DNA from: Eledone cirrhosa
Lineage: Eukaryota
Direction: 5' to 3'
Length of the DNA: 64,000 nt
Assembly (NCBI GenBank): GCA_964016885.1
Contig: OZ024742.1
Location: 226,300,001 to 226,364,000, forward strand
This document shows positions 3,797-62,463 of this stretch, one piece after another. The notes under the pieces are model-generated. The model searched no databases. It was not told the DNA's origin and saw only the letters and a program-made list of their open reading frames with translations. Numbering within the stretch: position 1 is the first letter of the stretch; each line of letters begins with the position of its first letter. Both the position numbers and the translations under genes were made by a program.

Positions 3797-3800
<4 letters not shown>

Positions 3801-5024
3801 CCAAACATGGAAGCAGAGACTAGAAAGAAACGGTCTCAAAGTCAACCTGATAAAGACTAAGGTCCTCATAAGTAGGCGAGAAAACAGAACCCAGATCCCC
3901 TCAGGGAAATGGCCTTGCTCAGTATGTATGAAAGGTGTAGGTAGGAACTCCATTCTCTGCCCCAAAGGCAAACAATGGGTACACAAGAGATGTAGTGGAA
4001 TCTCAGGAAGCTTAGCTAAGAATGTAGGCTTTACATGTAGCAGCTGTGCTGGGACAGCAAGCAGCAAACAGCCACAGGAAACAAGTACCACCAATCTCTG
4101 GGAGGGCTCTGTAGAAACAGTAGACAGCTTCTGCTACCTAGGTGACCAAATTAACAGTGGAGGTGGGTGTTCGGAAAGTACAATAACCAGGGTAAGAACG
4201 GGGTGGAAGAAATTCAGAGAGCTACTGCCACTGCTAGCTGCAAAAGGCTTTTCGCTCAAAATGAAAAGCAGACTGTATGATGCATGCATACAAACAGCAA
4301 TGTTACATGGTAGTGAGACCTGGGCACTGAAGGTGGAAGACTTGCATAGATTAAAAAGAAACGAAGCCTGCATGCTCCGATGGATGTGTAATAGTAATAT
4401 ATGCGAACAGCAAAGCATAAATGAATTGAGCATAAGAGGAATCAAATGCTGTGTGCAGGAGAGGAGGTTGCGTTGGTATGGACATGTGATGCGTATGAGG
4501 GATGACAACTGCATAAAAAGGTGCAGAGCACTAGAAGTCGATGGAAACCGCGGAGTGGGGAGACCCAAGATGACCTGGGATGAGGTCATAAAAGCCGACC
4601 TTACCCAATTGCACCTCTCAAAGGCGATGACACATGGCCGTGACCTCTGGCGTCACGCAGTAATACAGTAGACCCGACTTCCTACGTGTATAAACCGAAG
4701 CTGAAGCATATAGACAATATTCTCTCCCCCCTCCCCCCACACCCTCCCCCACACCCTCCCACTGCAAGGTGGTCGTGGAGGTGCCACAGCAAAAAAGCAC
4801 CCAGCCCACACTGTAAAGTGGACGTGTAGGCGTCATGGAAAAAAAGCACCCAGCATTCTGTAAATGAGGTTGGTGTTAGGAAGAGCATCCAGCTGTAGTA
4901 ATCAAGCCAGTATGAGCAAGACAAGGTCAGCCGACCGGACATTGCCCACAACAGGACAACCCGTCTAACTCATGCTAGAGTGGAAGAACGGACGTAAAAC
5001 GGTGATGATGATGATGATGATGAT
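3797..5024 (+). mobile_element. RTE LINE subfamily A, 5'-truncated
   Basis: ORF 3928-4671 matches the C-terminal part of ORF 5217-7511; same 3' UTR; (GAT)n tail; (AT)n on both sides. Confidence 0.93.
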
Positions 5025-5268
5025 ATATATATATTTTGCTTTTATCCTTCTATGTTGTTTACTTGTCCCCCTCGCTTTACGCGATTTACTGGTCCCAATA
5101 ACTTTTTTTAGTTATTGCTCGCACCAACCTGAAGTATATGATTTTTAATGCAATGAAATACCAATGATGGTTGGAAAATCACTGACGAAGGACTATTTTT
5201 ATCATATGTAACCCATGTGCAACCACGCAATATTCTTCTTTCTTCTCATGTTTTTATATATATATATA

Positions 5269-5316
<48 letters not shown>

Positions 5317-5320
<4 letters not shown>

Positions 5321-7814
5321 TAAAGAAGAACAGATAGAGACATTTAACGTAGAAGAGAACTGGGAGTTCCTAAAAAATAACTTACTAGAGGCGACGGATG
5401 AGGTTTGTGGCTGGAGTAAGACCTCAAGCAGGAGGAGAGTGACTTGGTGGTGGAACAATAAGGTAGATGAAGCAGTCAAGGCCAAGAGACAGGCATGGAA
5501 AGAATGGAAGAACGGGGGGAGCAGGGTACATTACATAGAGACCAAGAGGGAAGCTAGGCGACAAGTATACTTAGCTAGGAGGGAAGCAGAGGATAGAAAA
5601 TTCAAGCATGTTTTACAACGTGAGGACCAGAAACAGGAGGTATTCAAGATTGCGAGGCAGTGTGTCAGAGATAGTTGTGATGTCATTGGAGAGAAGTGTA
5701 TCCGGAATGATAAAGGTGAGCTTGCCCTCACAAGTGCTGAGAAGAAAGATGCATGGAAGAGTCATTATGTTAGATTACTAAATGAGGAGAATGCATGGGA
5801 AGAAGAGACCCTACCCCACGTAGACCTTATAGAGGGACCAGCAGTACAAGTCAGCGGCAGCGTAGTAAGTAAGGCAATCAGAGATATGAAGATAGGGAAG
5901 GCAACCGGTCCATCGGGTATAGCTGCCGAGATGCTGAAGGCATCTGGGTCTGTAGGTCACACTATAACCACACGTATCGTTAACCAGGTAATACTAGAGG
6001 GGGCCATACCAAAAGATTGGTGCAGTAGCATCATTGTCAACTGCTACAAAGGTAAAGGCGATGCACTAGATAGAGGAAACTATAGAGGTATAAAGTTGAT
6101 GGACCAGGTCATGAAAGTAACAGAAAGAGTTATAGCACAGCTGATTAGGGACCGGGTGAATATAGACGAGATGCAATTTGGGTTTGTTCCAGGGAAAGGC
6201 ACCACTGATGCGCTCTTCCTTGTGAGGCAATTACAGGAAAAGTACCTAGCTAAAAGTAAGCCACTCTACTTGGCATTTGTCGACCTTGAGAAAGCCTTTG
6301 ACAGAGTTCCACGTGCAGTAATCTGGTGGGCTCTTAGAAAACTAGGAGTAGATGAATGGCTTGTGAAAGCGGTACAAGCCATGTATAGGGGAGCAGTCAG
6401 CAAAGTTAGGATTGGCAATGAGTATAGCGAGGAATTTAGCGTACAGGTTGGGGTCCACCAGGGCTCTGTTCTTAGCCCTCTCCTGTTCATCATAGTCCTG
6501 CAGGCAATAACGGAGGAGTTTAAGACCGGATGCCCATGGGAACTCCTGTATGCTGATGACCTCGCACTCATAGCTGAATCTATGGTAGAACTAGAGAATA
6601 AATTCCAAACCTGGAAGCAGGGACTAGAGAGAAAGGGCCTCAAAGTCAACATGACAAAGACTAAGGTCCTTATAAGTAGACGAGAAAACAGAACCCAGAT
6701 CCCCTCAGGGAAATGGCCTTGCTCAGTATGTAGGAAAGGTGTAGGTAGGAACTCCATTCTTTGCCCCAAATGCAAACAATGGGTACACAAGAGATGTAGC
6801 GGGATCTCAGGAAGCTTAATTAAGAATGTAGGATTCACATGCAGCAGCTGTGCTGAAACAGCAAGCAAACAGCCACAGGAAACAAGTACCACCAATCTCT
6901 GGGAGGGCCCTGTAGAAACAGTAGACAGCTTCTGCTACCTAGGTGACCGAATTAGCAACGGAGGTGGGTGCTCAGAAAGTACAATAACTAGGGTAAGAAC
7001 GGGATGGAAGAAGTTTAGGGAACTACTACCACTGCTAGCTGCAAAAGGCTTCTCCCTCAGAATGAAAGGCAGACTGTATGATGCGTGTATCCGAACAGCG
7101 ATGTTGCATGGTAGTGAGACCTGGGCGCTGAAGGTGGAAGACTTACGTAGATTAGAGAGAAACGAAGCCTGCATGCTCCGATGGATGTGTAACAGTAATA
7201 TACGTGAACGACAAAGCATAAATGAATTGAGAGAGAGACTGAGCATAAGAGGAATCAAATGCTGCGTGCAGGAGAGGCGGTTACGCTGGTATGGACATGT
7301 GATGCGTATGAAGGATGACAGCTGCATAAAAAGGTGCAGAGCACTAGAAGTTGATGGAAACCGCGGAGTGGGGAGACCCAAGATGACTTGGGATGAGGTG
7401 ATAAAAGCCGACCTTACCCAACTACACCTCTCAAAGTCAATGACACACGACCGTGACTTCTGGCGTCACGCAGTAATACAGGGTACCCGACCTCCCATGG
7501 GTACATGCTGAAGCATATAAACAATATGCCCCCCCCCCCCACCGCAAGGTGGTCGTGGAGGTGCCACGGCAAAAAAGCACCCAGCCCACACTGTAAAGTG
7601 GACGTGTAGGCGCCACGAAAAAGCACCCAGCACTCACTGTAAATGAGGTTGGTGTTAGGAAGGGCATCCAGCTGTAGAAATCAAGCCAGATCAGTTCCTG
7701 TATGAGCAAGGCATGGTCAGCCGACCAGACACTGCCCACAACAGGACAACCCGTCTAACCCATGCTAGCGTGGAAGAACGGACGTAAAACGGTGATGATG
7801 ATGATGTGATGATG

Positions 7815-7815
<1 letters not shown>
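5317..7815 (+). mobile_element. RTE LINE subfamily A, 5'-truncated, young
   Basis: Uninterrupted frame from the (AT)n junction to the stop at 7511; ~280-bp 3' UTR; (GAT)n tail then (AT)n. Confidence 0.95.
5319..7511 (+). CDS. RTE ORF remnant: reverse transcriptase with inserted PHD finger (endonuclease lost by truncation)
   Basis: NYRGIKL, QFGF, FVDLEKAFDRV, GVHQGSVLSPLLF, YADD, YLG and RTE-type C-terminus RRLRWYGHVMRM..GRPKMTW; the tracked N-terminus 5217-5318 is flank/microsatellite read-through. Confidence 0.9.
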
Positions 7816-7852
<37 letters not shown>

Positions 7853-7891
7853 ATATATATATATCACATGGATATATGCATAACACACACA

Positions 7892-7938
<47 letters not shown>

Positions 7939-7940
<2 letters not shown>

Positions 7941-9724
7941 TTAAATTAATCGACCAGGTCATGAAGGTCACGGAAAAAGTTATAGCGTAACTAATCAGAG
8001 AGCGAATTGATCTAGATGAAATGCAGTTCGGGTTTGTGTCAGGAAAAAGTACCACAGGCGCTCTTTTCATTGTACGACAACTACAGGAGAAGTACCTAGC
8101 TAAAAGTAAACCCCTATACTTAGCTTTCGTCGACTTCGAGAAGGCCTTCGACAGAGTCCCCCGTTCCATTATCTGGTGGGCTCTTAGAAAACTAGGTGTT
8201 GATGAATGGCTTGTGAGAGCTATACAAGCCATGTATAAAGAAACAGTTAGCAAGGTTAGAATTAACAACGAATATAGTGAAGAGTTTAGTGTAAAAGTTG
8301 GTGTTCATCAGGGCTCTGTTCTTAGCCCCTTACTATTTATTATTGCCCTCCAGGCTATAACAGTGGAGTTCAAGACCGGCTGCCCATGGGAACTCCTATA
8401 CGCAGATGATCTAACGCTCATAGCTGAATCAATGGCCGAGCTAGAGAAGAAATTCCAAACATGGAAGCACGGCCTAGAATCAAAAGGCCTTAAAATTAAC
8501 CTAGCTAAGACTAAAGTTCTAGTTTGTAAGAAAGAAAATAAGGCGGCGGTCCCCTCCGGGAAGTGGCCATGCGCAGAGTGTAGGAAAGACGTAGGTAGAA
8601 ATTCCATTTTGTGTCCCAAATGCAAAGTTTGGGTGCATAAAAGATGTAGTGGGATCACAGGTAAGCTAACTAAGAACATAGATTTTACATGTGGCCGGTG
8701 TTCTGGGGATATAAGTAGCAGCAAGTGCCCACAAAATACTAGCTCTTTCAACTGCGCAGAGGGTTCTATAGAAATAGTGGACAGCTTCCGTTACCTGGGT
8801 GACAAAATCAGCAGTGGGGGAGGGTGCTCTGAAAGTACAGTAGCTAGAGTCAGAACTGGGTGGAAAAAGTTCAGAGAGCTTATACCACTATTAGCCGCTA
8901 AAGGGTTCTCCCTAAAAATGAAAGGCAGGCTGTACGATGCCTGCATACGAACAGCAATGTTGCATGGCAGTGAGACCTGGGCATTGTGTGCAGAGGATAT
9001 ACGCAGACTAGAGAGAAACGAAGCTTGCATGCTCCACTGGATGTGTAATAGTAATATACGTGAACGACAAAGCATAAACGAACTAAGGAAAAAATTAGAA
9101 ATAAGAGGGATCAGATGTTGTTTACTAGAGAGAAGGCTACGTTGGTATGGTCACGTGATGCGCATGAAGGATGATAGCTGTATAACAAAGTGCAGGGCAA
9201 TAAAGATAGACGGTAGCCACGGAATAGGCAGACCCAGAAAAACCTGGGACGAGCTAATAAACACCAACCTCACACACTTACACCTCACCAAGACAATGTC
9301 ACTGGACCGAGACCTTTGGCGGTACTCAGTAATAGAGAAGACCCGCCTTGCCAGTAGGCATCTCTAACAAAATACACCCCGTCCCACCACCACCACCCCC
9401 ACCCCATCCACACCGCCCCGTTCTATGTAAAGTTATGTTGGTGCCGCGCCATCCAGGCCGAAACAAATGAGATCGTGTAGGTGTCACGACAAAAAAACAC
9501 ACAGTCCACGCTGTAATGTGGCCGTGTAGGCAACACGGTAAAAACCTCCCAGTCCCACACTGTAAATGTGGTTGGTGTTAGGAAGGGCATCCACTGTAGA
9601 AAACCTGCCAGACAGTCCTATGCGAGCAAGACAATCACTCTTGCCTCAAGTGGGACTACCCCCGTCCAAACCCATGCAAGCGTGGAACACGGACGTTAAA
9701 CGTTGATGATGATGATGATGATGA
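7939..9724 (+). mobile_element. RTE LINE subfamily B, 5'-truncated, with 32-bp target-site duplication
   Basis: ORF 8021-9367 (RT, PHD, RTE C-terminus); (GAT)n tail; direct repeat 7865-7896 / 9734-9765. Confidence 0.95.
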
Positions 9725-10254
9725 TATATATATCACATGGATATATGCATAACACACACAAACATTGATAATTTACATAATAAACCTTTAAAAAAACACA
9801 CAGATTTAAACATACACATACACCCACACATAATATCTACACTAATACACATATATTTCACTTTGCGTCCCAAAATCGTTACCAAGATTACCTAACGGTT
9901 TGTCTTGTCTACTCTCATTATTTTCGTTTTTTTACTATGGACTACCTTTCATTCTCTATATCTATCCTTTGTGATCCTGTCTCTATTTTTGTACTCCTGA
10001 AGAAGGGCTAAAGCGCAACACGTCAAACTTTCTTTGCCCTTTTCCATATAAAGCGTGAACTAATAAGACTTTTGTACCTCTGCTTTGTCGTTTCCTTGAT
10101 CTATCTATCTATCTATCTATTTCTATATATATATTACATGAATTACATCAATATTTAAAAAATATATATATATATATATATATATTTTTAAAATATTGAT
10201 GTAATTCAATTCAAGAACTCAGCGTGCATTTTCAGGAGTGACAGAGTATTTTTA

Positions 10255-10468
10255 GAATAAGGAAATACAAAGATTAGATGATAAAGTCCTTTATTGATAA
10301 GGCCGGTATATGTATTTTGAGGATGACAAATTGTTATGTAATACAGTGTAGAAGCTAGTGCCATGGTCTATTGCGCTGCATTGCATAACCATTTCTCATC
10401 CTTGAAATACGTATAACAACCTTATCAATAAAGGACTTTATCGTCCAAACTCTGTATTTCCTTATACT
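10255..10468. repeat. Imperfect ~210-bp palindrome, possibly derived from a hammerhead-bearing element
   Basis: GATAAAGTCCTTTATTGATAAGG vs CCTTATCAATAAAGGACTTTATC with extended pairing; right arm contains GAAA-TACGTA-TA. Confidence 0.75.
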
Positions 10469-10496
10469 CTCTCTCTCTCTCATATTCTCATATATC

Positions 10497-10557
<61 letters not shown>

Positions 10558-10560
<3 letters not shown>

Positions 10561-12006
10561 TTAGCTTTTGTTGACTAGGAGAAAGCATTTGACAGAGTCC
10601 CCCCCTTAGAAAACTAGGAGTTGATGAATGGCTTGTGAGAGCTATACAAGCCATGTATAAAGAAACAGTCAGCAAGGTTAGAATTAACAACGAATATAGT
10701 GAAGAATTTAGCGTAAAAGTTGGTGTTCATCAGGGCTCTGTCCTTAGCCCCGTCCTATTTATTATTTCCCTTCAGGCTATAACAGAGGAGTTCAAGACCA
10801 GCTGCTCATGGGAACTCCTATACGCAGATGATCTAACCCTCATAGCTGAATCGATGGCTGAACTAGAGAAGAAATTCCAAACATGGAAGCATGGCCTAGA
10901 ATCAAAAGGCCTTAAAGTTAACTTGTCTAAGACTAAAGTTCTAGTATGTAGGAAGGAAAATAGGGCACAGGTCCCCTCTTGCAAATGGCCATGCTCAGTG
11001 TGTAGGAAAGGAGTAGGCAGAAATTCCATTTTATGTCCCAAATGCAAAGTATGGGTGCATAAAAGATGTAGTGGGATCACAGGTAAGCTATCTAAGAACG
11101 TAGATTTTATATGTGGCCGGTGCTCAGGTGCAATAAGTAGCAAGCGCCCACAGGATACTAGCTCCTTCTATTGCACAGATAGCTCTATAGAAACAGTAGA
11201 CACTTTCTGTTACCTGGGTGACAAAATCAGCAGTGGTGGAGGGTGCTCAGAAAGTACAGTAGCCAGAGTCAGAACGGGATGGAAAAAGTTCAGAGAGCTT
11301 ATACCACTATTGGCCGCTAAAGGTTTCTCTCTAAAAATGAAAGGCAGACTGTATGATGCCTGCATACGAACAGCTATGTTACATGGCAGTGAGACATGGG
11401 CATTGTGTGCAGAGGATCTGCGCAGACAGGAGTATACAAAAGTGCAGGGTGATCAGAATTGATGGAAGTTACGGAGTAGGCAGACCCAGAAAAACCTGGG
11501 ACGATTTGATAAATTCCTACCTTACACTCTTACACCTCTCTAAGACAATGTCACTGGACCGAGATCTTTGGCGCTACGCAGTAATACAGAAAACCCGCCT
11601 TACCTAAGTACAAAGCGAAACCTACAGTCAGTAGGCACCTCTTGATCAAATATACACCCCCTCCCACTACCCCAACTACCCCATCCCCACCCCTATCAAC
11701 ACCACCCCTTTCTCTGTAAAGTTATGTTGGTACCACAACATCCAGTCCTAAATAAATGAGGTCGTGTAGGTGTCACGACAAAAAAACACAGTCCACGCTG
11801 TAATGTGGCCGTGTAAGTAACACGGCAAAAACCTCCCAGTCCCAACTGTAAACGTGGTTGGTGTTAGGAAGGGCATCCAGCCATAGAAAACCTGCCAGAC
11901 AGTCCTATACGGGCGAGACGACCAATCTTGCCTCAAGTGGGACAATTCCCGTCTAAACCCATGCTAGAGTGGAAGATAGTCGTTAAACGATGATGATGAT
12001 GATGAT
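10558..12006 (+). mobile_element. RTE LINE subfamily B, 5'-truncated, internal deletions
   Basis: ORFs 10635-11462 and 11353-11607; 3' UTR and (GAT)n tail. Confidence 0.93.
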
Positions 12007-13494: not shown

Positions 13495-14190
13495 ACTAAC
13501 CAGCAACGTTACAAAGTTACTTAGCAAGATTTTCATGTTTACTGCACCAATAATGCAACTGGCAACATTTCATAGCTAGTTAGCAGCAACATTCTGATGT
13601 GTACTGCACCAATAATGCAACTGGCAACATTTCATAGCTAGTTAGCAGAAACATTTTCATGTTTACTGCACCAATAATGCTGCTGGCAACATTTCATTGC
13701 TATTGAGTGGCAACATTCTGATGTGTACTGCACCAATAATGCAATTGGCAACATTTCATAGCTAGTTAGCAGAAACATTTTCATGTTTACTGCACCAATA
13801 ATGCTGCTGGCAACATTTCATTGCTATTGAGTGGCAACATTCTGATGTGTACTGCACCAATAATGCAATTGGCAACATTTCATAGCTAGTTAGCAGCAAC
13901 ATTTTCATGTGTACTGCACCAATAATGCAATTGGCAACATTTCATAGCTAGTTAGCAGCAACATTTTCATGTGTACTGCACCAATAATGCAACTGCCAAT
14001 ATTTCATAGCTACTTAACAGCAATACTTTCATGCATACTGCACCAATAATGCAATTGGCAACATTTCATAGCTAGTTAGCAGCAACATTTTCATGTGTAC
14101 TGCACCAATAATGCAACTGGCAACATTTGAAAGATACTGAATAGTAACATTTTCATGTTTGCTGCACCAATGATGAAACTGGCAACATTT
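13495..14190. repeat. 62-bp minisatellite, ~11 copies
   Basis: ACTGCACCAATAATGC recurs at 13541, 13603, 13665, 13727 and onward to ~14161. Confidence 0.95.
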
Positions 14191-14436
14191 AGTGTTTCAG
14201 ATTGCTTCTTAAGCATTTAGAAGGTCACACCCATTACCTGTTGTAGTGTGTCTTTTCCTTTGTTCTCTTTTCTTACTAACCTATTTTTATAAAATGGTTT
14301 CAATTGCTAAATAAATATCAAATAACTTGTTTTTAAAATGCATATTATAAAAAATAATTTTAAATATGAAAATTAGTTTAACATAATTCTCTCCCCTGCA
14401 TATCAAAGTTGCTATCATTAATATTTGAATAATAAA

Positions 14437-14621
14437 GGGCGGTGGATTGGCAGTATCGGTAGAGGGTCGGACGCCATGCTTTCCAGCATAGTTACGTCCC
14501 TTTACGATCTGAGTTCAAATCCCGCCGAGGTTGACTTTGCCTTTCATCCTTACGGGGTCGATAAAATAAAGTACCAGTAATGCACTGGGTAATTGCTGGC
14601 CTTGTGTCTAAAGTAGAAACA
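14437..14621 (+). mobile_element. Full-length tRNA-derived SINE with 20-bp TSD
   Basis: A-box-like TGGCAGTATCGG, B-box GAGTTCAAATCC; TSD ATTAATATTTGAATAATAAA at 14417-14436 and 14622-14641. Confidence 0.92.
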
Positions 14622-14880
14622 ATTAATATTTGAATAATAAACAATTGATTTTTTTTGTTTTATTATTTTGTTCTTTTACTGGTTTCAGTCATTAGACTGT
14701 GGCCATGCAGGGCACTTCCTTGATATGATTTAGTAGATCATATCGACCCAAGTGCCTTTTTTTTATTTTCAAATCTGGTGCATATCTTATCGACCTCACT
14801 TTGTTCAACTGCTAAGTTAAGGAGCATAAACATAGATACAAATACACACACTAACATATTATATATATATATATAGATAT

Positions 14881-15734
14881 AAATATAAGTATGTATACGT
14901 ACATACATATATGTATACAGAAGTACAGTAGTATGTATATATATATACATACATGCATACATATATATATGTATGTATGGATTCACCAAACATTTATTAT
15001 AATGCTCGGTGTGTTTGTAAACAAACATCCCAAATTAAGCCGTACAGTGTCTAGCAACCATCGTTGCTCATTTGTTCAACACTGACAAAGGAACGATGTA
15101 CTAGTTTCAAGCTTATTAGCTATCGTCAGCAACGTATACCTTCCTGCCAAATGATTGAACGTCTGAAAGTATATACTTTCCTTATGCATATTAACAGCTG
15201 AGCAGCCTAATTTGCATATCGAGTGAGTTAATCGGCCGGGCGCACCGAAAACGATAAATGGAAAAAATGAAACGAAATTTCATTTCTCACTCTTAGTACG
15301 GCTGTTACTTAAATATAAGTATGTATACGTACATACATATATGTATACCGACGTACAGTAGTATGTATATATATATACATACATGCACACATATATATAT
15401 GTACGTATGGATTCACCGAACATTTATTATAATGCTCGGTGTGGTTGTAAACAAACATCCCGAATTAAGCCGTACAGTCTCTAGCAACCATCGTTGCTCA
15501 TTTGTTCAACACTGACAAAGGAACACTGTGTTTACAAACACACCGAGCATTATAATAAATGTTCGATGAATCCATACGTACATATATATATATGTGTGTG
15601 CATGTATGTATATATATATATACATACTACTGTACGTCTGAATACATATATGTATGTACGTATACACACTTATATTTAAGTAACAGCCGTACTAAGAGTG
15701 AGAAATGAAATTTTGTTTCATTTTTTCCGTTTAT
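14881..15734 (-). mobile_element. Hammerhead-containing 430-bp tandem element (retrozyme / Penelope pLTR-like), ~1.5 units plus an inverted ~205-bp arm
   Basis: AAATATAAGTATGTATACGTAC at 14881 and 15311; 15529-15734 is the reverse complement of 15254-15453; second family member at 61951-62463. Confidence 0.8.
15093..15135 (-). ncRNA. Minimal type I hammerhead ribozyme
   Basis: Minus strand ACGTTG-CTGACGA-TAGCT-AATA-AGCTT-GAAA-CTAG-T-A^CATCGT: full catalytic core, stems I and II, palindromic ACTAGT stem III. Confidence 0.82.
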
Positions 15735-15754
15735 ATAGATATAGATATAGATAT

Positions 15755-18700
15755 GTTTCTTTTATTTGCCACAAGGGCATCAAAAGTGGGACAAGTACAA
15801 TGGGGGGAGTTTACAAAACAAGGCGTCCTCAATAGGGAGGAGGCAATAACAATATATAAAAATAAAATAAAATATAACAAAAAATAGAATTATAACAAAA
15901 TCCTCAATAGAGGATTTTGTTATAAAATATAACAAAAAATAAAATTTATAACAAAATCCTCAATAGAGAGGAGGCGCCTTGGGGGGGTCGCACACACCCC
16001 CGAAAAAAGTGTGCAACCCTTTTCCTCAGGAGCACAGAGAGGGGGTGCTCCCTCGTTCCTTCCTCTTTTCCACCTACAGGCTCATGTAAAGAGAAGGCCC
16101 ATTCACACGGGCCATTCTCGCCACTTTCACCCACCTTTCATAAAAACGACTGGGGTGCAGCACCTCTCTCTCCATCCTGATCCTTCTTCTGAAATGATAT
16201 CGGAAGAAACGGACCAGTTGTTGGCCAGAGAGAAAGGTGCCTGACCTCAGTCCTTTCAGACGCGTCCACCATACAACCTCTTTCGTCAAGGCTATTACGC
16301 ACAGAAACACCGCCTCTGCTTCATCTTTGAAGGGGGGAGGCGGCTTGATCATTACAATAGACTCGGTGGTCAACCGGATCGGTCCCACCCTTGACAGCAG
16401 TTGTTCGACATAGCCCCACAGATCGACTACGCCCGAGCAGTGTACCAATGCATGTGCAACGGTTTCCTCGTCGCACACGCATCTAGGACAGATCTTTTTG
16501 GCGGGGTCCCTACCCGGGCGCCCGTGTCTGTAGAGCCTTTCTCGAACGGGTAAAGCTCCTCGGTAGCACTGCCAGGCCAGGGACTTCTGGAAGTTGTCCA
16601 TAGGTCCCGGGCTGAATGTCCTACCGAACAGGCTGGCCAGTTCGTCCTCCTCCATGTCTAGGGCTTCTCCGAGGGCGTCGTCGCACCTGCTGCGTACCAG
16701 CCCTCTATAGAATGTTGCGGTGGAGTCTCCACTGATAACCGGATCCGCCTGCCAGAGGGCGGTGAGTGCCTGGGCACACTCAGTGTGCCAGGCGCCCAGT
16801 TTTCTCGGTCTTTGCTTGACCCAGGATTGCAGCTCGGTGAGTGAGACGAGTCTGGGAAAGGTTCGTCTCACAAACGAGGCCCACACCGGTTGTCCGGTGA
16901 GGAATACGTAGAGGTGCCGTAGCCTTAATGCGTGTTTACGCATCATTAGCCACGGCATCCCCAGCCCTCCTTTCGAAGGGTGTTGACAGCAGATGGATCT
17001 CCTCACCATAGGAGCCCGCCTCTTCCAAAGGAATTGGAAGAGCGCGCGCTCCATCTTGGTGAGGGTTTCCCTTGGGCAGGGCACTACGGTCAGGCGGTAG
17101 TAGATGACGGACGCTATGTAGGTGTTCGCCACCTCCGCCCGACCTTTCAGGGATAGTTTGCAACTGGCCCACTTCTGGGTCAGTGCAAACACCCTGTTCG
17201 TAACCTCCGCCCAGTTTTTCTCCACCTGGAGGTCCGGTCCGAACCAGACCCCGAGCAACTTCACCGGGCCCTCCGTCCAGCATCCGACGACGCCATCGGA
17301 GGGCATCGGTCTGCCCCTCCACGTGCCGAGTTGCAAACCGATCGACTTGTCCCGGTTCAGCTTGGCCCCTGTGAACTTTTCGTACTCCTCCAGTAAGGTG
17401 CCGACCGCCTCGATTTCGGAGGCCGTCGACACCATTACTGTCACGTCATCGGCGTAGGCCGACACCGCTTTCCGCAATCCCGGTTCCAAAGGGATGTCCT
17501 GCAACAACTCCAACTTCCGCAGTAGTGGCTCGAGAGTCAACACATACAGAAGGGAGGAGAGAGGGCACCCTTGTCGGATGGACCGCGCGATTTTGAACGG
17601 CTCCGAGAGGTAGCCGTTCACCTTGACCCTAGAGCAGATGCGGCTGCTGTGCATAGCAGTGATCCAGCCCCTGAAAACGGGTCCGAAGCCTGCCGCCGCT
17701 AGCACCGCATCCAGGTAACCATGGTCGACCCTATCGAACGCCTTAGATTGATCCAAGTTGATCAGAGCCCCACCAAAGCCGGGTTCGTTCCCAACCCTCT
17801 CTATGATGTATCGCATGAGGTGGAGGTTGTCATGGATGGACCTGGACGGGATAGCGCATGTCTGCGCATCTCCCACCAGGTTGCCCACGACAAGCGCTAA
17901 CCTCTTTGCTAGCACCTTGGCCAAAATCTGTAACTCTGTATTTAGCAGAGTTATGGGCCTGAAGTTACTTATTTCGTCCCCCTTGTTCTCGTCCTTCCTC
18001 ACTAGCGTGACTACGCCCTTGGTCACAGTACAGGGAATTCTCCCGTTCTGTTGCCAGTTGCAGTAGACCGCCTCGAGGAGATCGGGGAACAAGTCCGGCA
18101 TAGCTAGATATAATTCGTAAGGAAGACCATCGAGACCCGGGGATTTGCGTTTGCCGCATTGGCTCAGAACGTCCTCTATCTCAGCGGCCGAAATCGGCTC
18201 CTCGCAGGACTTCGCCTCCCTGTCCGAGAGGCGCGGCAGGCCGTCAAGGTATGGACCGAAGTCCACGTTCCCAACCGGCTCCCCGCCCCTCCCGAACAGT
18301 CGGGCAAAGTGCCTTTGAAAGGCCTCACACATCTGCTTAGGCTCAAGAATCGCCCATCCATCCAGGTCTCGCAAAGACCGGATGGTGGATTTAGTTCCAC
18401 TGTTAGCCTCTGTCACGCGGGCCCAGCTAACAGCTTTGGTCCCCTCGTTCCCTAGAGCACGTATTTTACTTCGGACAACGCAGCCTTCGTGCTTTGCGTC
18501 GAAAAACTGGCTCAAAGCCGTTCTCGACGCTAGCACTCTGGCCACGTCGCCGCTTCTAATTGCCTCTTCTACTCTATCTATTAGCTCCCTTTCCTTCCTA
18601 TTCCTATCCGCAGCTAGAACCTTACTAAATTCTATCGAGACTACTCTAATCTCTCTCTTTAGAGATACCCACCACCTGCTGTTGACGATCGCTCCAGTCA

Positions 18701-18900
18701 ACCGTTCCTTAACTAACGTACTAATCCGATTCTTGTAGGCTCTACTTGCCGGCAAGGACAAGTTGAGCTTCCAGTAACCGGGGCCCTGTCTATGAGTTCT
18801 GTCAAGGTTGACCATGCAGGTCACTAATTTGTGGTCTGAATAGCCAACCATGCGCATTTTTGGACAACTTAAAAAGTCCTTATCCTTAATTCTAACTAAG
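15755..18900 (-). mobile_element. Tx1/L1-group non-LTR retrotransposon, 5'-truncated
   Basis: GC-rich block with long ORF; minus-strand AATAAA near 15765; flanked by (ATATAG)n and (TAGA)n. Confidence 0.9.
16074..18857 (-). CDS. Tx1-like ORF2: end of APE, RT and C-terminal CCHC zinc knuckle
   Basis: YSDHKLV, GPGYWKLN, KSPGLDGLPYE, NFRPITLLN, LDQSKAFDRV, RQGCPLS, YADD, GGLG, CPRC..ETVAHALVHC; no internal stop in 927 aa. Confidence 0.92.
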   Translation of the reverse strand: MRMVGYSDHKLVTCMVNLDRTHRQGPGYWKLNLSLPASRAYKNRISTLVKERLTGAIVNSRWWVSLKREIRVVSIEFSKVLAADRNRKERELIDRVEEAIRSGDVARVLASRTALSQFFDAKHEGCVVRSKIRALGNEGTKAVSWARVTEANSGTKSTIRSLRDLDGWAILEPKQMCEAFQRHFARLFGRGGEPVGNVDFGPYLDGLPRLSDREAKSCEEPISAAEIEDVLSQCGKRKSPGLDGLPYELYLAMPDLFPDLLEAVYCNWQQNGRIPCTVTKGVVTLVRKDENKGDEISNFRPITLLNTELQILAKVLAKRLALVVGNLVGDAQTCAIPSRSIHDNLHLMRYIIERVGNEPGFGGALINLDQSKAFDRVDHGYLDAVLAAAGFGPVFRGWITAMHSSRICSRVKVNGYLSEPFKIARSIRQGCPLSSLLYVLTLEPLLRKLELLQDIPLEPGLRKAVSAYADDVTVMVSTASEIEAVGTLLEEYEKFTGAKLNRDKSIGLQLGTWRGRPMPSDGVVGCWTEGPVKLLGVWFGPDLQVEKNWAEVTNRVFALTQKWASCKLSLKGRAEVANTYIASVIYYRLTVVPCPRETLTKMERALFQFLWKRRAPMVRRSICCQHPSKGGLGMPWLMMRKHALRLRHLYVFLTGQPVWASFVRRTFPRLVSLTELQSWVKQRPRKLGAWHTECAQALTALWQADPVISGDSTATFYRGLVRSRCDDALGEALDMEEDELASLFGRTFSPGPMDNFQKSLAWQCYRGALPVRERLYRHGRPGRDPAKKICPRCVCDEETVAHALVHCSGVVDLWGYVEQLLSRVGPIRLTTESIVMIKPPPPFKDEAEAVFLCVIALTKEVVWWTRLKGLRSGTFLSGQQLVRFFRYHFRRRIRMEREVLHPSRFYERWVKVARMARVNGPSLYMSL

Positions 18901-18929
18901 TAGATAGATAGATAGATAGATAGATAGAA

Positions 18930-24548: not shown

Positions 24549-24670
24549 ATATAGTCAACATCTACATACATCTACTATCCACTCAATATCTACACATTGT
24601 ATCTACCTATCTATATATATGTGTATCCCGTCAACATCTATATAATGTATCTGTCTATCTATATATATAT

Positions 24671-27600
24671 AGACACAGTATGTAGATGTTGACTGGATAT
24701 ATATAGAGATAGTCAGACACAGTACTGTGTAGATGTTGACTGGATAGATAGACACAGTATGTAGATGTTGACTGGATATATATAGAGATAGTCAGACACA
24801 GTACTGTGTAGATGTAGACTGGATAGATAGACACAGTATGTAGATGTTGACTGGATATATATAGAGATAGTCAGACACAGTACAATGTAGATGTAGACTG
24901 GATAGATAGACACAGTCTGTAGATGTTGACTGGATATATATAGAGATAGTCAGACACAGTACAATGTAGATGTAGACTGGATAGATAGACACAGTCTGTA
25001 GATGTTGACTGGATATATATAGAGATAGTCAGACACAGTACAATGTAGATGTAGACTGGATAGATAGACACAGTCTGTAGATGTTGACTGGATATATATA
25101 GAGATAGTCAGACACAGTACTGTGTAGATGTTGACTAGATAGATAGACACAGTAGGTAGATGTTGACTGGATATATATAGAGATAGTCAGACACAGTACT
25201 GTGTAGATGTAGACTGGATAGATAGACACAGTATGTAGATGTTGACTCTATATATATAGAGATAGTCAGACACAGTACTGTGTAGATGTAGACTGGATAG
25301 ATAGACACAATATGTAGATGTTGACTGGATATATATAGAGATAGTCAGACACAGTACTGTGTAGATGTAGACTGGATAGATAGACACAGTATGTAGATGT
25401 TGACTCTATATATATAGAGATAGTCAGACACAGTACTGTGTAGATATAGACTGGATAGATAGACACAGTATGTAGATGTTGACTGGATATATATAGAGAT
25501 AGTCAGACACAGTACTGTGTAGATGTTGACTGGATAGATTGACACAGTCTGTAGATGTTGACTGGATATATATAGAGATAGTCAGACACAGTACTATGTA
25601 GATGTAGACTGGATAGATAGACACAGTCTGTAGATGTTGACTGTATATATATATAGAGATAGTCAGACACAGTACTGTGTAGATGTAGACTAGATAGATA
25701 GACAGAGTATGTAGATGTTGACTGGATATATATAGAGATAGTCAGACACAGTACTGTGTAGATGTAGACTGGATAGAGAGACACAGTATGTAGATGTTGA
25801 CTGGATATATATAGAGATAGTCAGACACAGTACTGTGTAGATGTAGACTGGATAGATAGACACAGTATGTAGATGTTGACTGGATATATATAGAGATAGT
25901 CAGACACAGTACTGTGTAGATGTAGACTGGATAGATAGACACAGTCTGTAGATGTTGACTGGATATATATAGAGATAGTCAGACACAGTAATGTGTAGAT
26001 GTTGACTGGATAGATAGACACAGTCTGTAGATGTTGACTGGATATATATAGAGATAGTCAGACACAGTACTGTGTAGATGTAGACTGGATAGATAGACAC
26101 AGTATGTAGATGTTGACTGGATATATATAGAGATAGTCAGACACAGTACTATGTAGATGTAGACTGGATAGATAGACACAGTCTGTAGATGTTGACTGGA
26201 TATATATAAAGATAGTCAGACACAGTACTGTGTAGATGTTGACTGGATAGATAGACACAGTCTGTAGATGTTGACTGGATATATATAAAGATAGTCAGAC
26301 ACAGTACTGTGTAGATGTTGACTGGATAGATAGACACAGTCTGTAGATGTTGACTGGATATATATAGAGATAGTCAGACACAGTACTGTGTAGATGTAGA
26401 CTGGATAGATAGACACAGTATGTAGATGTTGACTGGATATATATAGAGATAGTCAGACACAGTACTATGTAGATGTAGACTGGATAGATAGACACAGTCT
26501 GTAGATGTTGACTGGATATATATAAAGATAGTCAGACACAGTACTGTGTAGATGTTGACTGGATAGATAGACACAGTCTGTAGATGTTGACTGGATATAT
26601 ATAAAGATAGTCAGACACAGTACTGTGTAAATGTTGACTGGATAGATAGACACAGTCTGTAGATGTTGACTGGATATATATAAAGATAGTCAGACACAGT
26701 ACTGTGTAGATGTTGACTGGATAGATAGACACAGTATGTAGATGTTGACTGGATAGATATAGAGATAGTCAGACACAGTACTGTGTAGATGTTGACTGGA
26801 TAGATAGACACAGTATGTAGATGTTGACTGGATATATATAGAGATAGTCAGACACAGTACTGTGTAGATGTAGACTGGATAGATAGACACAGTCTGTAGA
26901 TGTTGACTGGATATATATAGAGATAGTCAGACACAGTACTGTGTAGATGTTGACTGGATAGATAGACACAGTATGTAGATATTGTCTGGATAGATAGACA
27001 CAGTCTGTAGATGTTGACTGGATATATATAGAGATAGTCAGACACAGTACTGTGTAGATGTTGACTGGATAGATAGACACAGTATGTAGATATTGTCTGG
27101 ATATAAATAGAGATAGTCAGACACAGTACTATGTAGATATAGACTGGATAGATAGACACAGTCTGTAGATGTTGACTGGATATATATAGAGATAGTCAGA
27201 CACAGTACTGTGTAGATGTTGACTGGATAGATAGACACAGTCTGTAGATGTTGACTGGATATATATAAAGATAGTCAGACACAGTACTGTGTAGATGTAG
27301 ACTGGATAGATAGACACAGTATGTAGATGTTGACTGGATATATATAGAGATAGTCAGACACAGTACTGTGTAGATGTAGACTGGATAGATAGACAGAGTA
27401 TGTAGATGTTGACTGGATATATATAGAGATAGTCAGACACAGTACTGTGTAGATGTTGACTGGATAGATAGACACAGTATGTAGATGTTGACTGGATATA
27501 TATAGAGATAGTCAGACACAGTACTGTGTAGATGTAGACTGGATAGATAGACACAGTATGTAGATATTGACTGGATATATATAGAGATAGTCAGACACAG

Positions 27601-30600
27601 TACTGTGTAAATGTTGACTGGATAGATAGACACAGTCTGTAGATGTTGACTGGATATATATAGAGATAGTCAGACACAGTACTGTGTAGATGTAGACTGG
27701 ATAGATAGACACAGTATGTAGATGTTGACTGGATATATATAGAGATAGTCAGACACAGTACTGTGTAGATGTAGACTGGATAGATAGACAGAGTATGTAG
27801 ATGTTGACTGGATATATATAGAGATAGTCAGACACAGTACTGTGTAGATGTAGACTGGATAGATAGACACAATATGTAGATGTTGACTGGATATATATAG
27901 AGATAGTCAGACACAGTACTATGTAGATGTAGACTGGATAGATAGACACAGTCTGTAGATGTTGACTGGATATATATAGAGATAGTCAGACACAGTACTG
28001 TGTAGATGTAGACTGGATAGATAGACACAGTATGTAGATATTGTCTGGATATAAATAGAGATAGTCAGACACAGTACTGTGTAGATGTTGACTAGATAGA
28101 TAGACACAGTCTGTAGATGTTGACTGGATATATATAGAGATAGTCAGACACAGTACTGTGTAGATGTAGACTGGATAGATAGACACAGTATGTAGATATT
28201 GTCTGGATATAAATAGAGATAGTCAGACACAGTACTGTGTAGATGTTGACTAGATAGATAGACACAGTCTGTAGATGTTGACTGGATATATATAGAGATA
28301 GTCAGACACAGTACTGTGTAGATGTAGACTGGATAGATAGACACAGTATGTAGATATTGTCTGGATATAAATAGAGATAGTCAGACACAGTACTGTGTAG
28401 ATGTTGACTAGATAGATAGACACAGTCTGTAGATGTTGACTGGATATATATAGAGATAGTCAGACACAGTACTGTGTAGATGTAGACTGGATAGATAGAC
28501 ACAGTATGTAGATGTTGACTGGATATATATAGAGATAGTCAGACACAGTACAATGTAGATGTAGACTGGATAGAGAGACACAGTCTGTAGATGTTGACTG
28601 GATATATATAAAGATAGTCAGACACAGTACTGTGTAGATGTTGACTGGATAGATAGACACAGTATGTAGATGTTGACTGGATATATATAAAGATAGTCAG
28701 ACACAGTACTGTGTAGATGTAGACTGGATAGATAGACACAATATGTAGATGTTGACTGGATATATATAGAGATAGTCAGACACAGTACTGTGTAGATGTT
28801 GACTAGATAGATAGACACAGTAGGTAGATGTTGACTGTATATATATAGAGATAGTCAGACACAGTACTGTGTAGATGTAGACTGGATAGATAGACACAGT
28901 CTGTAGATGTTGACTGGATATAAATAGAGATAGTCAGACACAGTACTGTGTAGATGTAGACTGGATAGATAGACACAATATGTAGATGTTGACTGGATAT
29001 ATATAAAGATAGTCAGACACAGTACTGTGTAGATGTAGACTGGATAGATAGACACAGTATGTAGATGTTGACTGGATATATATAGAGATAGTCAGACACA
29101 GTACTGTGTAGATGTTGACTGGATAGATAGACAGAGTATGTAGATGTTGACTGGATATATATAGAGATAGTCAGACACAGTACTGTGTAGATGTAGACTG
29201 GATAGATAGACACAGTATGTAGATGTTGACTGGATATATATAGAGATAGTCAGACACAGTACTGTGTAGATATAGACTGGATAGATAGACACAGTCTGTA
29301 GATGTTGACTGGATATATATAGAGATAGTCAGACACAGTACTGTGTAGATGTAGACTGGATAGATAGACACAGTATGTAGATGTTGACTGGATATATATA
29401 GAGATAGTCAGACACAGTACTGTGTAGATGTAGACTGGATAGATAGACACAGTATGTAGATGTTGACTGGATATATATAGAGATAGTCAGACACAGTACT
29501 GTGTAGATGTTGACTGGATAGATAGACACAGTCTGTAGATGTTGACTGGATATATATAGAGATAGTCAGACACAGTACTGTGTAGATGTTGACTAGATAG
29601 ATAGACACAGTAGGTAGATGTTGACTGGATATATATATAGAGATAGTCAGACACAGTACTGTGTAGATGTAGACTGGATAGATAGACACAGTATGTAGAT
29701 GTTGACTGGATATATATAGAGATAGTCAGACACAGTACAATGTAGATGTAGACTGGATAGATAGACACAGTCTGTAGATGTTGACTGGATATATATAGAG
29801 ATAGTCAGACACAGTACTGTGTAGATGTAGACTGGATAGATAGACACAGTATGTAGATGTTGACTGGATATATATAAAGATAGTCAGACACAGTACTGTG
29901 TAGATGTAGACTGGATAGATAGACACAGTATGTAGATGTTGACTGGATATATATAGAGATAGTCAGACACAGTAATGTGTAGATGTTGACTGGATAGATA
30001 GACACAGTATGTAGATGTTGACTGGATATATATAGAGATAGTCAGACACAGTACTGTGTAGATGTTGACTGGATAGATAGACACAGTATGTAGATGTTGA
30101 CTGGATATATATAGAGATAGTCAGACACAGTACTGTGTAGATGTAGACTGGATAGATAGACACAGTCTGTAGATGTTGACTCTATATATATAGAGATAGT
30201 CAGACACAGTACTGTGTAGATGTAGACTGGATAGATAGACACAGTCTGTAGATGTTGACTGGATATATATAGAGATAGTCAGACACAGTACTGTGTAGAT
30301 GTAGACTGGATAGATAGACACAGTATGTAGATGTTGACTGGATATATATAGAGATAGTCAGACACAGTACTGTGTAGATGTAGACTGGATAGATAGACAC
30401 AGTATGTAGATGTTGACTGGATATATATAGAGATAGTCAGACACAGTACTGTGTAGATGTTGACTAGATAGATAGACACAATATGTAGATGTTGACTGGA
30501 TATATATAGAGATAGTCAGACACAGTACTGTGTAGATGTAGACTGGATAGATAGACACAGTCTGTAGATGTTGACTGGATATATATAGATAGTCAGACAC

Positions 30601-33600: not shown

Positions 33601-34315
33601 GACTGGATATATATAGAGATAGTCAGACACAGTACTGTGTAAATGTAGACTGGATAGATAGACACAGTATGTAGATGTTGACTGGATATATATAGAGATT
33701 GTCAGACACAGTACTGTGTAGATGTAGACTGGATAGATAGACACAGTCTGTAGATGTTGACTGGATATATATAGAGATAGTCAGACACAGTACTGTGTAG
33801 ATGTAGACTGGATAGATAGACACAGTATGTAGATGTTGACTGGATATATATAAATATAGTCAGACACAGTACTGTGTAGATGTTGACTGGATAGATAGAC
33901 ACAGTAGGTAGATGTTGACTGGATATATATAGAGATAGTCAGACACAGTACTGTGTAGATGTAGACTGGATAGATAGACACAGTATGTAGATGTTGACTG
34001 GATATATATAAAGATAGTCAGACACAGTACTGTGTAGATGTTGACTGGATAGATAGACACAGTCTGTAGATGTTGACTGGATATATATAGAGATAGTCAG
34101 ACACAGTACTGTGTAGATGTAGACTGGATAGATAGACAGAGTATGTAGATGTTGACTGGATATATATAGAGATAGTCAGACACAGTACTATGTAGATGTA
34201 GACTGGATAGATAGACACAGTCTGTAGATGTTGACTGGATATATATAGAGATAGTCAGACACAGTACTGTGTAGATGTAGACTGGATAGATAGACACAGT
34301 ATGTAGATGTTGACT

Positions 34316-34325
<10 letters not shown>
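24671..34325 (-). repeat. 79-bp satellite array, ~120 copies
   Basis: Minus-strand unit CCAGTCAACATCTACATACTGTGTCTATCTAT-CCAGTCTACATCTACACAGTACTGTGTCTGACTATCTCTATATATAT; 79-bp period visible in the ORF track. Confidence 0.98.
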
Positions 34326-34380
<55 letters not shown>

Positions 34381-38122: not shown

Positions 38123-38142
38123 TATATATATATATATATATA

Positions 38143-44100: not shown

Positions 44101-44825
44101 ATATATATCCAGTCAACATCTACATACTGTGTCTATCTATCCAGTCTACATCTACACAGTACTGTGTCTGACTATCTCTATATATATCCAGTCAACATCT
44201 ACATATTGTGTCTATCTATCCAGTCTACATCTACACAGTACTGTGTCTGACTATCTCTATATATATCCAGTCAACATCTACATACTGTGTCTATCTATCC
44301 AGTCAACATTTACACAGTACTGTGTCTGACTATCTCTATATATATCCAGTCAACATCTACATATTGTGTCTATCTATCCAGTCAACATCTACACAGTACT
44401 GTGTCTGACTATCTCTATATATATCCAGTCAACATCTACAGACTGTGTCTATCTATCCAGTCAACATCTACATACTGTGTCTATCTATCCAGTCTACATC
44501 TACACAGTACTGTGTCTGACTATCTTTATATATATCCAGTCAACATCTACATACTGTGTCTATCTATCCAGTCTACATCTACACAGTACTGTGTCTGACT
44601 ATCTCTATATATATCCAGTCAACATCTACATACTCTGTCTATCTATCCAGTCTACATCTACACAGTACTGTGTCTGACTATCTCTATATATATCCAGTCA
44701 ACATCTACATACTCTGTCTATCTATCCAGTCTACATCTACACCAGTACTGTGTCTGACTATCTTTATATATATCCAGTCAACATCTACATACTGTGTCTA
44801 TCTATCCAGTCAACATCTACACCAG
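38143..44825 (+). repeat. 79-bp satellite array, ~85 copies, opposite orientation to 24671-34325
   Basis: Same unit read on the + strand. Confidence 0.98.
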
Positions 44826-45139
44826 TATTTCCCAAACATGTTTACTCAAAGCACACATTAGAACAAGTAAAAATATGTTGCTGCAATTTATACTTAAATT
44901 CTAAAAATTTATTCAAAAGAGATATTTACACACATTAACAGCATAAATAGAAATATAGATAATTAAACATCCAGAAAAATTATTTGTACTTCCTTCTTTA
45001 ATCAATAAATAGAACAAAGTTATCAATATGTACTTGGTGTTATTTGGTAATATTTTCATTATAAGCTTAGTTATTTCTCACTTTGACAGTTAGATATGGA
45101 CTTTATGTTGAATTCCAATTTGTATTTTTAACATTCCTT

Positions 45140-61888: not shown

Positions 61889-61950
<62 letters not shown>

Positions 61951-61954
<4 letters not shown>

Positions 61955-62463
61955 GGAAAAGCATGAAACGAAATTTCATTTCTCACTCTTAGTATGGCTG
62001 ATACTTAAATGTAAGTATGTATACGTACATACATATATGTATACAGATGTACAGTAGTATGTATATATATATATATACATGTACACATATATATATGCAA
62101 GTATGGGTTTACCAAACATTTATTATAATGTTCGGTTTGTTTGTAAACAAACAGCCCGAATTACGCTTTACAGTGTTTGGCAACCGTCGTCGCCTTTTTG
62201 TTCAACACTGACACAGGAACAATGTACTAGTTTCAAGCTTATTAGCTATCGTCAGCATCGTATACCTTTCTGTCAGATGATTGAACGTTTGAAAGTATAT
62301 ACTTTCCTTATGCATATTAACGGCTGAGCAGCCTAATTTGCATATCGAGTGAGTTAGTCGGCCGGGCGAACCGAAAATGATAAATGGAAAAGGATAAAAC
62401 GAAATTTCATTTCTCACTCTTAGTACGGCTGATACTTAAATATAAGTATGTACACGTATGTAC
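61951..62463 (-). mobile_element. Second copy of the hammerhead-containing ~430-bp tandem element (~1.2 units)
   Basis: AAATGGAAAAG..AAACGAAATTTCATTTCTCACTCTTAGT at 61951 and 62383; aligns to 14881-15528. Confidence 0.82.
62219..62261 (-). ncRNA. Minimal type I hammerhead ribozyme
   Basis: ACGATG-CTGACGA-TAGCT-AATA-AGCTT-GAAA-CTAG-T-A^CATTGT; core identical to 15093-15135. Confidence 0.82.

What the first reader, a model, noticed from the sequence alone, without database searches (positions are those of the whole stretch)
14881..15734. 430-bp hammerhead tandem element whose fold-back inversion starts at the predicted self-cleavage site
Seen: a non-coding 430-bp unit in partial tandem with a complete minimal type I hammerhead on the minus strand (predicted cut between 15099 and 15098). 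The second unit stops at 15528/15529, one period from that cut, and the sequence then switches to an inverted copy of 15254-15453; both outer ends abut AT-rich microsatellite. Established: minimal hammerheads with a palindromic stem III occur in Penelope-like element pLTRs and in tandem non-LTR retrozymes that yield circular RNAs. Inference: this is a cDNA of a ribozyme-cleaved RNA whose end folded back to prime second-strand synthesis, i.e. a snapshot of the replication cycle of a possibly undescribed retrozyme-like family.
Basis: partly seen in the sequence, partly recalled or inferred. Interest (0 to 1): 0.85.

Follow-up and report, generated by a model that had tools for sequence, protein, structure and literature searches.

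The report
Two-armed hammerhead retrozyme, Penelope-style insertion
This is one of many thousands of copies of a 430-base non-coding repeat with a hammerhead ribozyme motif that sit in TA microsatellites, often as two back-to-back arms ending at two different fixed sites; it is likely a known kind of genomic parasite copied by Penelope-type enzymes, and its junction at the predicted self-cut site is likely a coincidence rather than a fold-back.

Summary
The sequence description is right: a 430-bp partial tandem, a type I hammerhead on the minus strand (predicted cut 15099/15098), an inversion junction within 1 nt of the next cut site, and TA-rich flanks. The hammerhead is canonical rather than 'minimal'. 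The unit is a high-copy family (14,842 exact 18-mer hits). Its 5' ends and inversion points are scattered; ends near the cut are no more frequent than elsewhere (about 4.1% vs 3.6% per 15 nt), and 122 of 127 passes read through it. The fixed ends are the outer 3' ends, at two sites 56 nt apart. Head-to-head pairs with both ends canonical carried one of each in 37 of 37 cases, and in 6 of 27 neither arm could be copied from the other, which argues against fold-back. Local autonomous Penelope-like elements show the same rule (11 of 11). Best reading: a new non-LTR retrozyme, inserted by priming both target strands, probably on a circular RNA. No partner ORF or RNA evidence was found. This scan has already noted the same pattern in this and other genomes.

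The parts
14860..14879 (.). (TA)n target microsatellite, left side
   Evidence: Sequence; most sampled 3' ends abut (TA)n
14880..15528 (-). Arm A: 1.5 monomers, RNA sense on the minus strand. Outer 3' end at fixed site A (monomer position about 219); 5' end at the second cut site
15093..15135 (-). Canonical type I hammerhead motif (stem I 15135-15130 / 15098-15093, core 15129-15123, stem II 15121-15110, GAAA 15108-15105, CUAG loop); predicted cut 15099/15098
   Evidence: Sequence; conservation and pair variation; definitions in PMC4209133
15254..15309 (-). 56-nt 'tail' between start sites A and B (internal copy), predicted to form a long hairpin; site A lies in the loop of a short hairpin
   Evidence: End counts; fold
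15310..15528 (-). Second, partial monomer: carries only the 3' strand of stem I, no ribozyme core
15529..15734 (+). Arm B: inverted arm, monomer positions 76-275, outer 3' end at fixed site B (includes the tail)
15735..15754 (.). (ATAGAT)n / TA-type microsatellite, right side
   Evidence: Sequence
61949..62458 (-). Second family copy in the window: single arm with a B end next to (TA)30, running through the cut site without a break

Best explanation
This locus is an insertion of a high-copy, protein-free 430-nt hammerhead repeat (a non-LTR retrozyme) into a TA microsatellite, likely made by a Penelope-like reverse transcriptase/endonuclease that likely primed two separate cDNAs, one from each cut target strand. 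Shown: fixed 3' ends at two sites (A about 219, B 275) abutting (TA)n; one A and one B per two-armed insertion; scattered 5' ends; read-through of the cut site; the two arms share subfamily and private variants. Inferred: the enzyme, probably a dimer, nicks both target strands and starts one cDNA at A and one at B, each using a TAT microhomology to the target. Both run towards the RNA 5' side on a template with no end at the cut (a ligated circle, or uncleaved multimer), stop at random, and are joined head to head with short overlaps or fills. The ribozyme would act earlier, in making monomers or circles, not at integration. The junction here falls at the cut by chance.
For: 3' ends: 93 of 129 arms end exactly at 275 or 219 in 78 position-ordered loci. 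Pairing: 29 of 29 pairs with both ends canonical are A+B in that set (27 after removing two duplicated elements), and 10 of 10 in the 30 top-similarity loci; about 4e-12 if ends were chosen independently. A separate motif method gave 43 of 44; the exception, L034, runs past A into the tail by alignment. Non-nested arms in L096, L111, L112, L124, L128, L144. Arms share rare alleles at 5.3% (22 of 413), like tandem passes within an arm (6.1%, 23 of 378) and unlike same-subfamily copies at other loci (0.43%); subfamily concordance 44 of 45 against 0.39-0.56 by chance. No excess of ends at the cut. Arrays up to about 7.5 units with 0.5% internal divergence. The genome holds RT+GIY-YIG elements in (TA)n, whose inverted pairs carry the tail on exactly one arm in 11 of 11 (read by eye). 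In vitro, a Penelope-like protein cuts and extends both strands, starts at two internal RNA sites that bound the tail, is predicted dimeric and does not need ribozyme cleavage (PMC11167929).
Against: No autonomous partner sharing sequence with the unit was found among 50 GIY-YIG loci or in 68 upstream flanks. PMC11167929 saw no difference in start site between top and bottom strand in vitro, which does not by itself predict strict A+B pairing. 12 of 41 pairs in the position-ordered set and 1 of 11 in the other had a non-canonical outer end and were left out of the pairing count; 47 of 129 arms were unpaired (some hide short partners). One pair (L021) has arms of different subfamilies and 3 of 49 within-arm comparisons are mixed, so not every insertion copies one homogeneous circle. 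Shared variants could partly come from later gene conversion; 8 of the 22 shared rare alleles are from one locus. The stop rate was not flat by pass (0.20, 0.38, 0.19% per nt).
Confidence: 0.7

Rival explanations
1. One reading: the template was a ribozyme-cleaved RNA, reverse transcription ran off at the cut, and the cDNA end folded back to prime the inverted strand.
For: The junction here is at the cut +/-1 nt. One search lists a few other copies that stop at the cut, three with the same short hairpin-like junction. Self-priming has been proposed for Penelope inverted repeats (PMC3846280).
Against: About 11 of roughly 92 listed true breakpoints lie at the two cut-compatible positions, against about 12 expected if uniform (by eye, 100 of 121 matches listed). 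End rate at the cut 4.1% (3.4-4.9) vs control 3.6% (3.1-4.2) per 15 nt. Fold-back predicts nested arms and like ends; observed are unlike ends and 6 non-nested pairs. A cut-to-cut linear monomer could give at most 275 nt of cDNA, yet 56 of 129 arms exceed 430 nt (sample is length-biased).
Confidence: 0.07
2. A self-primed hairpin DNA forms off the chromosome and is then resolved by staggered endonuclease cuts at A and B before joining to (TA)n, so the tail is a resolution product.
For: Explains unlike ends and shared variants. The tail was ascribed to endonuclease-mediated resolution in PMC8557442. In the six non-nested pairs the B arm fits within A arm plus tail.
Against: Needs a 56-nt stagger. 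One pair has arms of different subfamilies. The two 5' ends show no proximity. In vitro the two sites are reverse-transcription start sites (PMC11167929).
Confidence: 0.13
3. The unit is only the terminal repeat (pLTR) of an autonomous Penelope-like element, and these are 5'-truncated copies of it.
For: Same tail, inversion and (TA)n signature as local autonomous elements. Retrozymes are related to pLTRs in Xenopus (10.64898/2026.07.22.740005).
Against: Arms continue into further monomers, not into an ORF. PLE protein matches in the unit loci do not abut any arm's 5' end. The longest ATG frame in a trimer is 64 codons. Local autonomous families have different hammerheads and tails.
Confidence: 0.1

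Closest known systems
Metazoan non-LTR retrozymes (Cervera & de la Pena 2020, PMC7229834, passages read; Li, Clavereau & Pollet 2026, 10.64898/2026.07.22.740005, parts 1-3 of 5 read)
   Same: Non-coding tandem monomers with a canonical type I hammerhead, low GC (37%), thousands of copies, coexisting with Penelope-like elements. Helix III resembles the axolotl HHR_Amex1 description and the U-U at the base of helix II resembles HHR_Amex2.
   Different: Monomer 430 nt (up to about 500 in sister subfamilies), slightly above the 170-400 nt of the 2020 paper. The passages read do not describe two fixed start sites, head-to-head arms or microsatellite targeting ('inverted' and 'microsatellite' occur 0 times in PMC7229834). 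Expression and circularity are untested here.
Endonuclease-bearing Penelope-like elements (Craig et al. 2021, PMC8557442, passages; Arkhipova et al. 2013, PMC3846280, passages; Frangieh et al. 2024, PMC11167929, parts 1-2 of 4)
   Same: [quoted passage not shown]
   Different: No ORF. The tail is 56 nt rather than 30-40. One-end-only is near-absolute in these counts rather than 'often' or 'optional'. No sequence-related partner found.
Minimal hammerheads of PLE pLTRs (Cervera & de la Pena 2014, PMC4209133, part 1 of 4 read)
   Same: Type I topology; weak monomeric helix III, so dimeric cleavage is predicted (dimer fold -19.4 vs monomer -1.3 kcal/mol for the core).
   Different: Has a 1-bp helix III with a 4-nt palindromic loop, a 6-bp helix I and a 4-bp helix II, which that paper calls canonical.
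L1 twin priming (recalled; only search listings seen)
   Same: Both target strands prime cDNAs, giving an inverted 5' part joined by microhomology.
   Different: In L1 the second priming site is variable (recalled); here both sites are fixed and 56 nt apart.

Membership tests
Non-LTR retrozyme | Canonical type I hammerhead motif in the monomer | tested here: met
   Motif and conservation over 121 contexts; no Rfam hit
Non-LTR retrozyme | Short tandem monomers, GC under 45% | tested here: met
   430 nt, 37% GC, arrays to about 7.5 units
Non-LTR retrozyme | No protein coding | tested here: met
   Longest ATG frame 64 codons in a trimer
Non-LTR retrozyme | At least two consecutive complete hammerheads (the 2026 preprint's 'active' criterion) | tested here: inconclusive
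   Not met by this locus (one complete motif); other loci hold multi-unit arrays, e.g. L016, L105 and the array at L046-L054
Non-LTR retrozyme | Self-cleavage in vitro | not testable with these tools
   Needs a bench assay
Non-LTR retrozyme | Expressed as linear and circular monomer RNA | not testable with these tools
   No RNA holder listed
Non-LTR retrozyme | No LTR, primer-binding site or polypurine tract | not tested
   No dedicated search; the architecture is tandem/inverted rather than LTR-bounded
Autonomous Penelope-like element | RT plus GIY-YIG ORF between pLTRs | tested here: not met
   No ORF attached in 108 unit loci or 20 sister loci
Penelope-type insertion footprint | Two 3' ends bounding a tail, inverted 5'-truncated copy, AT-rich target | tested here: met
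PLE minimal hammerhead (min-HHR) | Only core nucleotides, no helix III / loop 3, longer helix II | tested here: not met
   CUAG loop, 4-bp helix II
pLTR of a catalogued PLE | Sequence identity with a named PLE terminal repeat | not testable with these tools
   No Repbase or Dfam here; no similarity to 50 local GIY-YIG loci beyond 13-33-nt matches at E>=0.006 or separate unit insertions

The most novel reading that the evidence does not exclude
Penelope-type integration is intrinsically two-armed and asymmetric: one enzyme dimer primes both cut strands at two dedicated sites of a single, probably circular, retrozyme RNA. The tail, the inverted pLTR and the tandem arrays would then all be one reaction. 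This family, with over ten thousand copies and an A+B rule shared with local autonomous elements, would be genome-level evidence that animal retrozyme circles are Penelope templates and that inverted pLTRs do not arise by self-priming.
Probability: 0.45. Interest if true: 0.7.

Novelty: new member of a known kind. Interest (0 to 1): 0.42.

Why it matters
How Penelope-like elements form their tandem/inverted structures, and which enzyme mobilises animal retrozymes, are both stated as open in the papers read (PMC8557442, PMC7229834, the 2026 preprint). This family gives countable constraints: two fixed start sites, always one of each per two-armed insertion, non-nested arms, and no trace of the ribozyme cut at the termini. 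These favour double target priming over the published self-priming idea and name a 430-nt RNA substrate for reconstitution.

Tried and rejected
Rfam scan: no hammerhead family at E<=1. Unconstrained folding of the window's motif did not give the hammerhead fold (z -1.36). Partner hunt: PF26215 is not in the library; PF01541 gave 10,596 candidates, 150 scored, of which 50 loci were examined with no unit-related pLTR; 68 upstream flanks shared only unrelated repeats and no common junction; 20 loci with the same hammerhead core were sister or variant non-coding units of the same family. An apparent hot spot of 5' ends in the ribozyme core (13 observed vs 4.6 expected at positions 394-410) was not confirmed genome-wide (3.6% per 15 nt; that denominator includes sister subfamilies). 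Expression: no RNA holder listed; four runs of unrecorded kind laid as contigs cover the unit and show loose ends at 15254 next to TA repeats but cannot show RNA. No earlier scan note by sequence. No tRNA in 13500-17000. The script stopped partway, so hidden short arms were not counted fully. Target-site duplications were not assessed because the targets are (TA)n. Five literature searches returned no paper stating a strict one-of-each-end rule or describing this family. Subscription journals, Repbase, Dfam and all supplements (including the species tables of the 2026 preprint and the repeat library of PMC13282606) were not seen and may hold it.

Full report
Observation. The described anatomy is in the sequence. 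A 220-nt direct repeat at spacing 430 (14880 and 15310) is followed at 15529 by an inverted copy of 15254-15453, between TA-type microsatellites. The minus strand carries a type I hammerhead with predicted cleavage between 15099 and 15098. I number the monomer from the base after that cut. Against the family majority, unit 2 matches through monomer position 1 (15528) with one CpG-type change, and the next base fits either arm, so the junction is at the cut +/-1 nt. By PMC4209133 (part 1 of 4 read) the motif is canonical, not minimal. Rfam did not detect it. Its reality rests on conservation: core positions 93-100% over 121 distinct contexts, and one stem I pair seen in five pairing forms. Those contexts were collected with a core-based pattern allowing 3 substitutions, so core conservation is partly built in; the stem I pairs lie outside the pattern.

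Family. The host genome is about 3.0 Gb; it looks cephalopod-like to me from recall, which no call tested. An 18-mer of the unit has 14,842 exact hits and the ribozyme core 20-mer 28,139; the excess comes from sister subfamilies about 80% identical. I analysed 30 top-similarity loci, 78 position-ordered loci from the start of contig 1 (chosen from the first 100 hits of two patterns, up to 40.3 Mb) and 20 sister loci. The unit is non-coding and 37% GC.

Which ends are fixed. In the 78 loci, 93 of 129 arms end exactly at position 275 (site B) or 219 (site A), nearly always against (TA)n. Both sites have TAT just inside, matching the target. The 56 nt between them are predicted to form a long hairpin, with site A in the loop of a short one. 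The 5' ends are spread over the whole monomer.

Is the cut site special? No. In the sample, 2 ends lie within 5 nt of the cut against 2.9 expected, and 122 of 127 passes through position 10 continue at least 20 nt. Genome-wide, I counted anchors followed after 14 bases by non-consensus letters: 121 of 14,842 across the cut, 177 of 10,980 in a control window and 351 of 28,139 in the ribozyme core. After correcting for capture probability estimated from 169 real flanks and for small indels (fractions judged by eye from the 100 listed rows, roughly), the rates are 4.1%, 3.6% and 3.6% per 15 nt with overlapping intervals; without the indel correction they are about 4.5, 4.0 and 4.8%. By eye, about 11 of roughly 92 true breakpoints listed fall on the two cut-compatible positions, as expected if uniform. 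A junction like this one therefore turns up repeatedly by chance among thousands of insertions.

Is the inverted arm a fold-back? Of 41 head-to-head pairs in the position-ordered set, 29 had both outer ends canonical and all 29 were A+B (27 independent); of 11 in the top-similarity set, 10 of 10. The other 13 had a non-canonical end and were set aside. Independent choice gives about 4e-12. A motif-based recount over all three sets gave 43 of 44; the exception runs into the tail by alignment, and one sister pair (L219) may join two elements. In six pairs the A arm reaches further 5' than the B arm yet lacks all or most of the tail that the B arm has, so neither can be copied from the other. Offsets between the two 5' ends are uniform. 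The arms usually share a source: rare alleles 5.3% vs 0.43% between loci, subfamily 44 of 45; one pair is discordant and 3 of 49 within-arm comparisons are mixed.

Likely mover. The genome has many GIY-YIG elements, some with open RT plus GIY-YIG frames. Three families sit in (TA)n with their own tails, and 11 of 11 inverted pairs I could read carry the tail on one arm only (by eye). None shares sequence with the unit, and no ORF abuts an arm, so the partner is unidentified.

Mechanism. PMC11167929 (parts 1-2 of 4) shows a Penelope-like protein cutting and extending both strands of AT-rich DNA, starting at two internal RNA sites that bound the tail, predicted dimeric, and not needing ribozyme cleavage. 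Combining that with the counts above, I infer double target priming at A and B on a template with no end at the cut, random stops, and head-to-head joining. Circle versus uncleaved multimer is not resolved; long homogeneous arrays fit a circle and mixed arms need switching or mixed templates. A hairpin intermediate resolved by staggered cuts remains possible at lower odds.

Comparison with what is known. Tandem canonical type I hammerhead repeats are non-LTR retrozymes (PMC7229834, passages), proposed as non-autonomous derivatives of Penelope-like elements (10.64898/2026.07.22.740005, parts 1-3 of 5). Inverted 5'-truncated copies, a tail often at one end and (TA)n targets are described for these elements (PMC8557442, passages; PMC3846280, passages, which proposes self-priming). 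An octopus repeat annotation mentions no ribozyme or retrozyme in its main text (PMC13282606, passages). Five searches found no statement of the strict rule or of this family; supplements and repeat databases were not seen. Earlier notes of this scan describe the same two-armed pattern in this and other genomes; I had reached my reading before seeing them, and they are not independent support.

Verdict. Observation confirmed; retrozyme/Penelope link supported; cut-site and fold-back inference not supported. New member of a known kind, with a useful and testable constraint on Penelope-type integration. Interest 0.42.

Noticed in passing
window 61949-62458: Second copy of the same family: single arm with a B end beside (TA)30, crossing the cut site intact.
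   Followed up: partly
window 24665-34326 and 38137-44827: Two long arrays of a 79-bp satellite in opposite orientation, with mirror-image GC skew.
   Followed up: no
window 16074-18929 (-): 950-codon open frame with RVT_1 and zf-RVT matches, a non-LTR retrotransposon, 340 bp from the finding.
   Followed up: partly
window 3799-11462 (+): Several tandem pieces of a LINE with RT and a PHD-finger match.
   Followed up: partly
window 13523-14190: 62-bp tandem repeat, about 11 copies.
   Followed up: no
L201-L220: Sister subfamilies at about 80% identity, with periods of about 466-540 nt (variable internal TA tract), the same hammerhead core and the same A/B ends; the core 20-mer has 28,139 exact hits.
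   Followed up: yes
L181, L182, L186, L190, L194: An autonomous RT-GIY-YIG family with a CX4CXXC linker (Neptune/Nematis-like by PMC8557442) whose terminal repeat has a hammerhead-like motif with the U3-A8 core variant; one 938-codon frame is open.
   Followed up: partly
L032, L102, L123, L202, L213 flanks: Another short repeat recurs next to the same (TA)n tracts; possibly a further non-autonomous element.
   Followed up: no
G000:C2:16232429, C2:201153614, C3:4737484: Three copies share one hairpin-like junction at the cut site; independent events or duplicates not determined.
   Followed up: no
L021, L012, L141: Arms or passes belonging to different subfamilies within one insertion, suggesting template switching or mixed templates.
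   Followed up: partly
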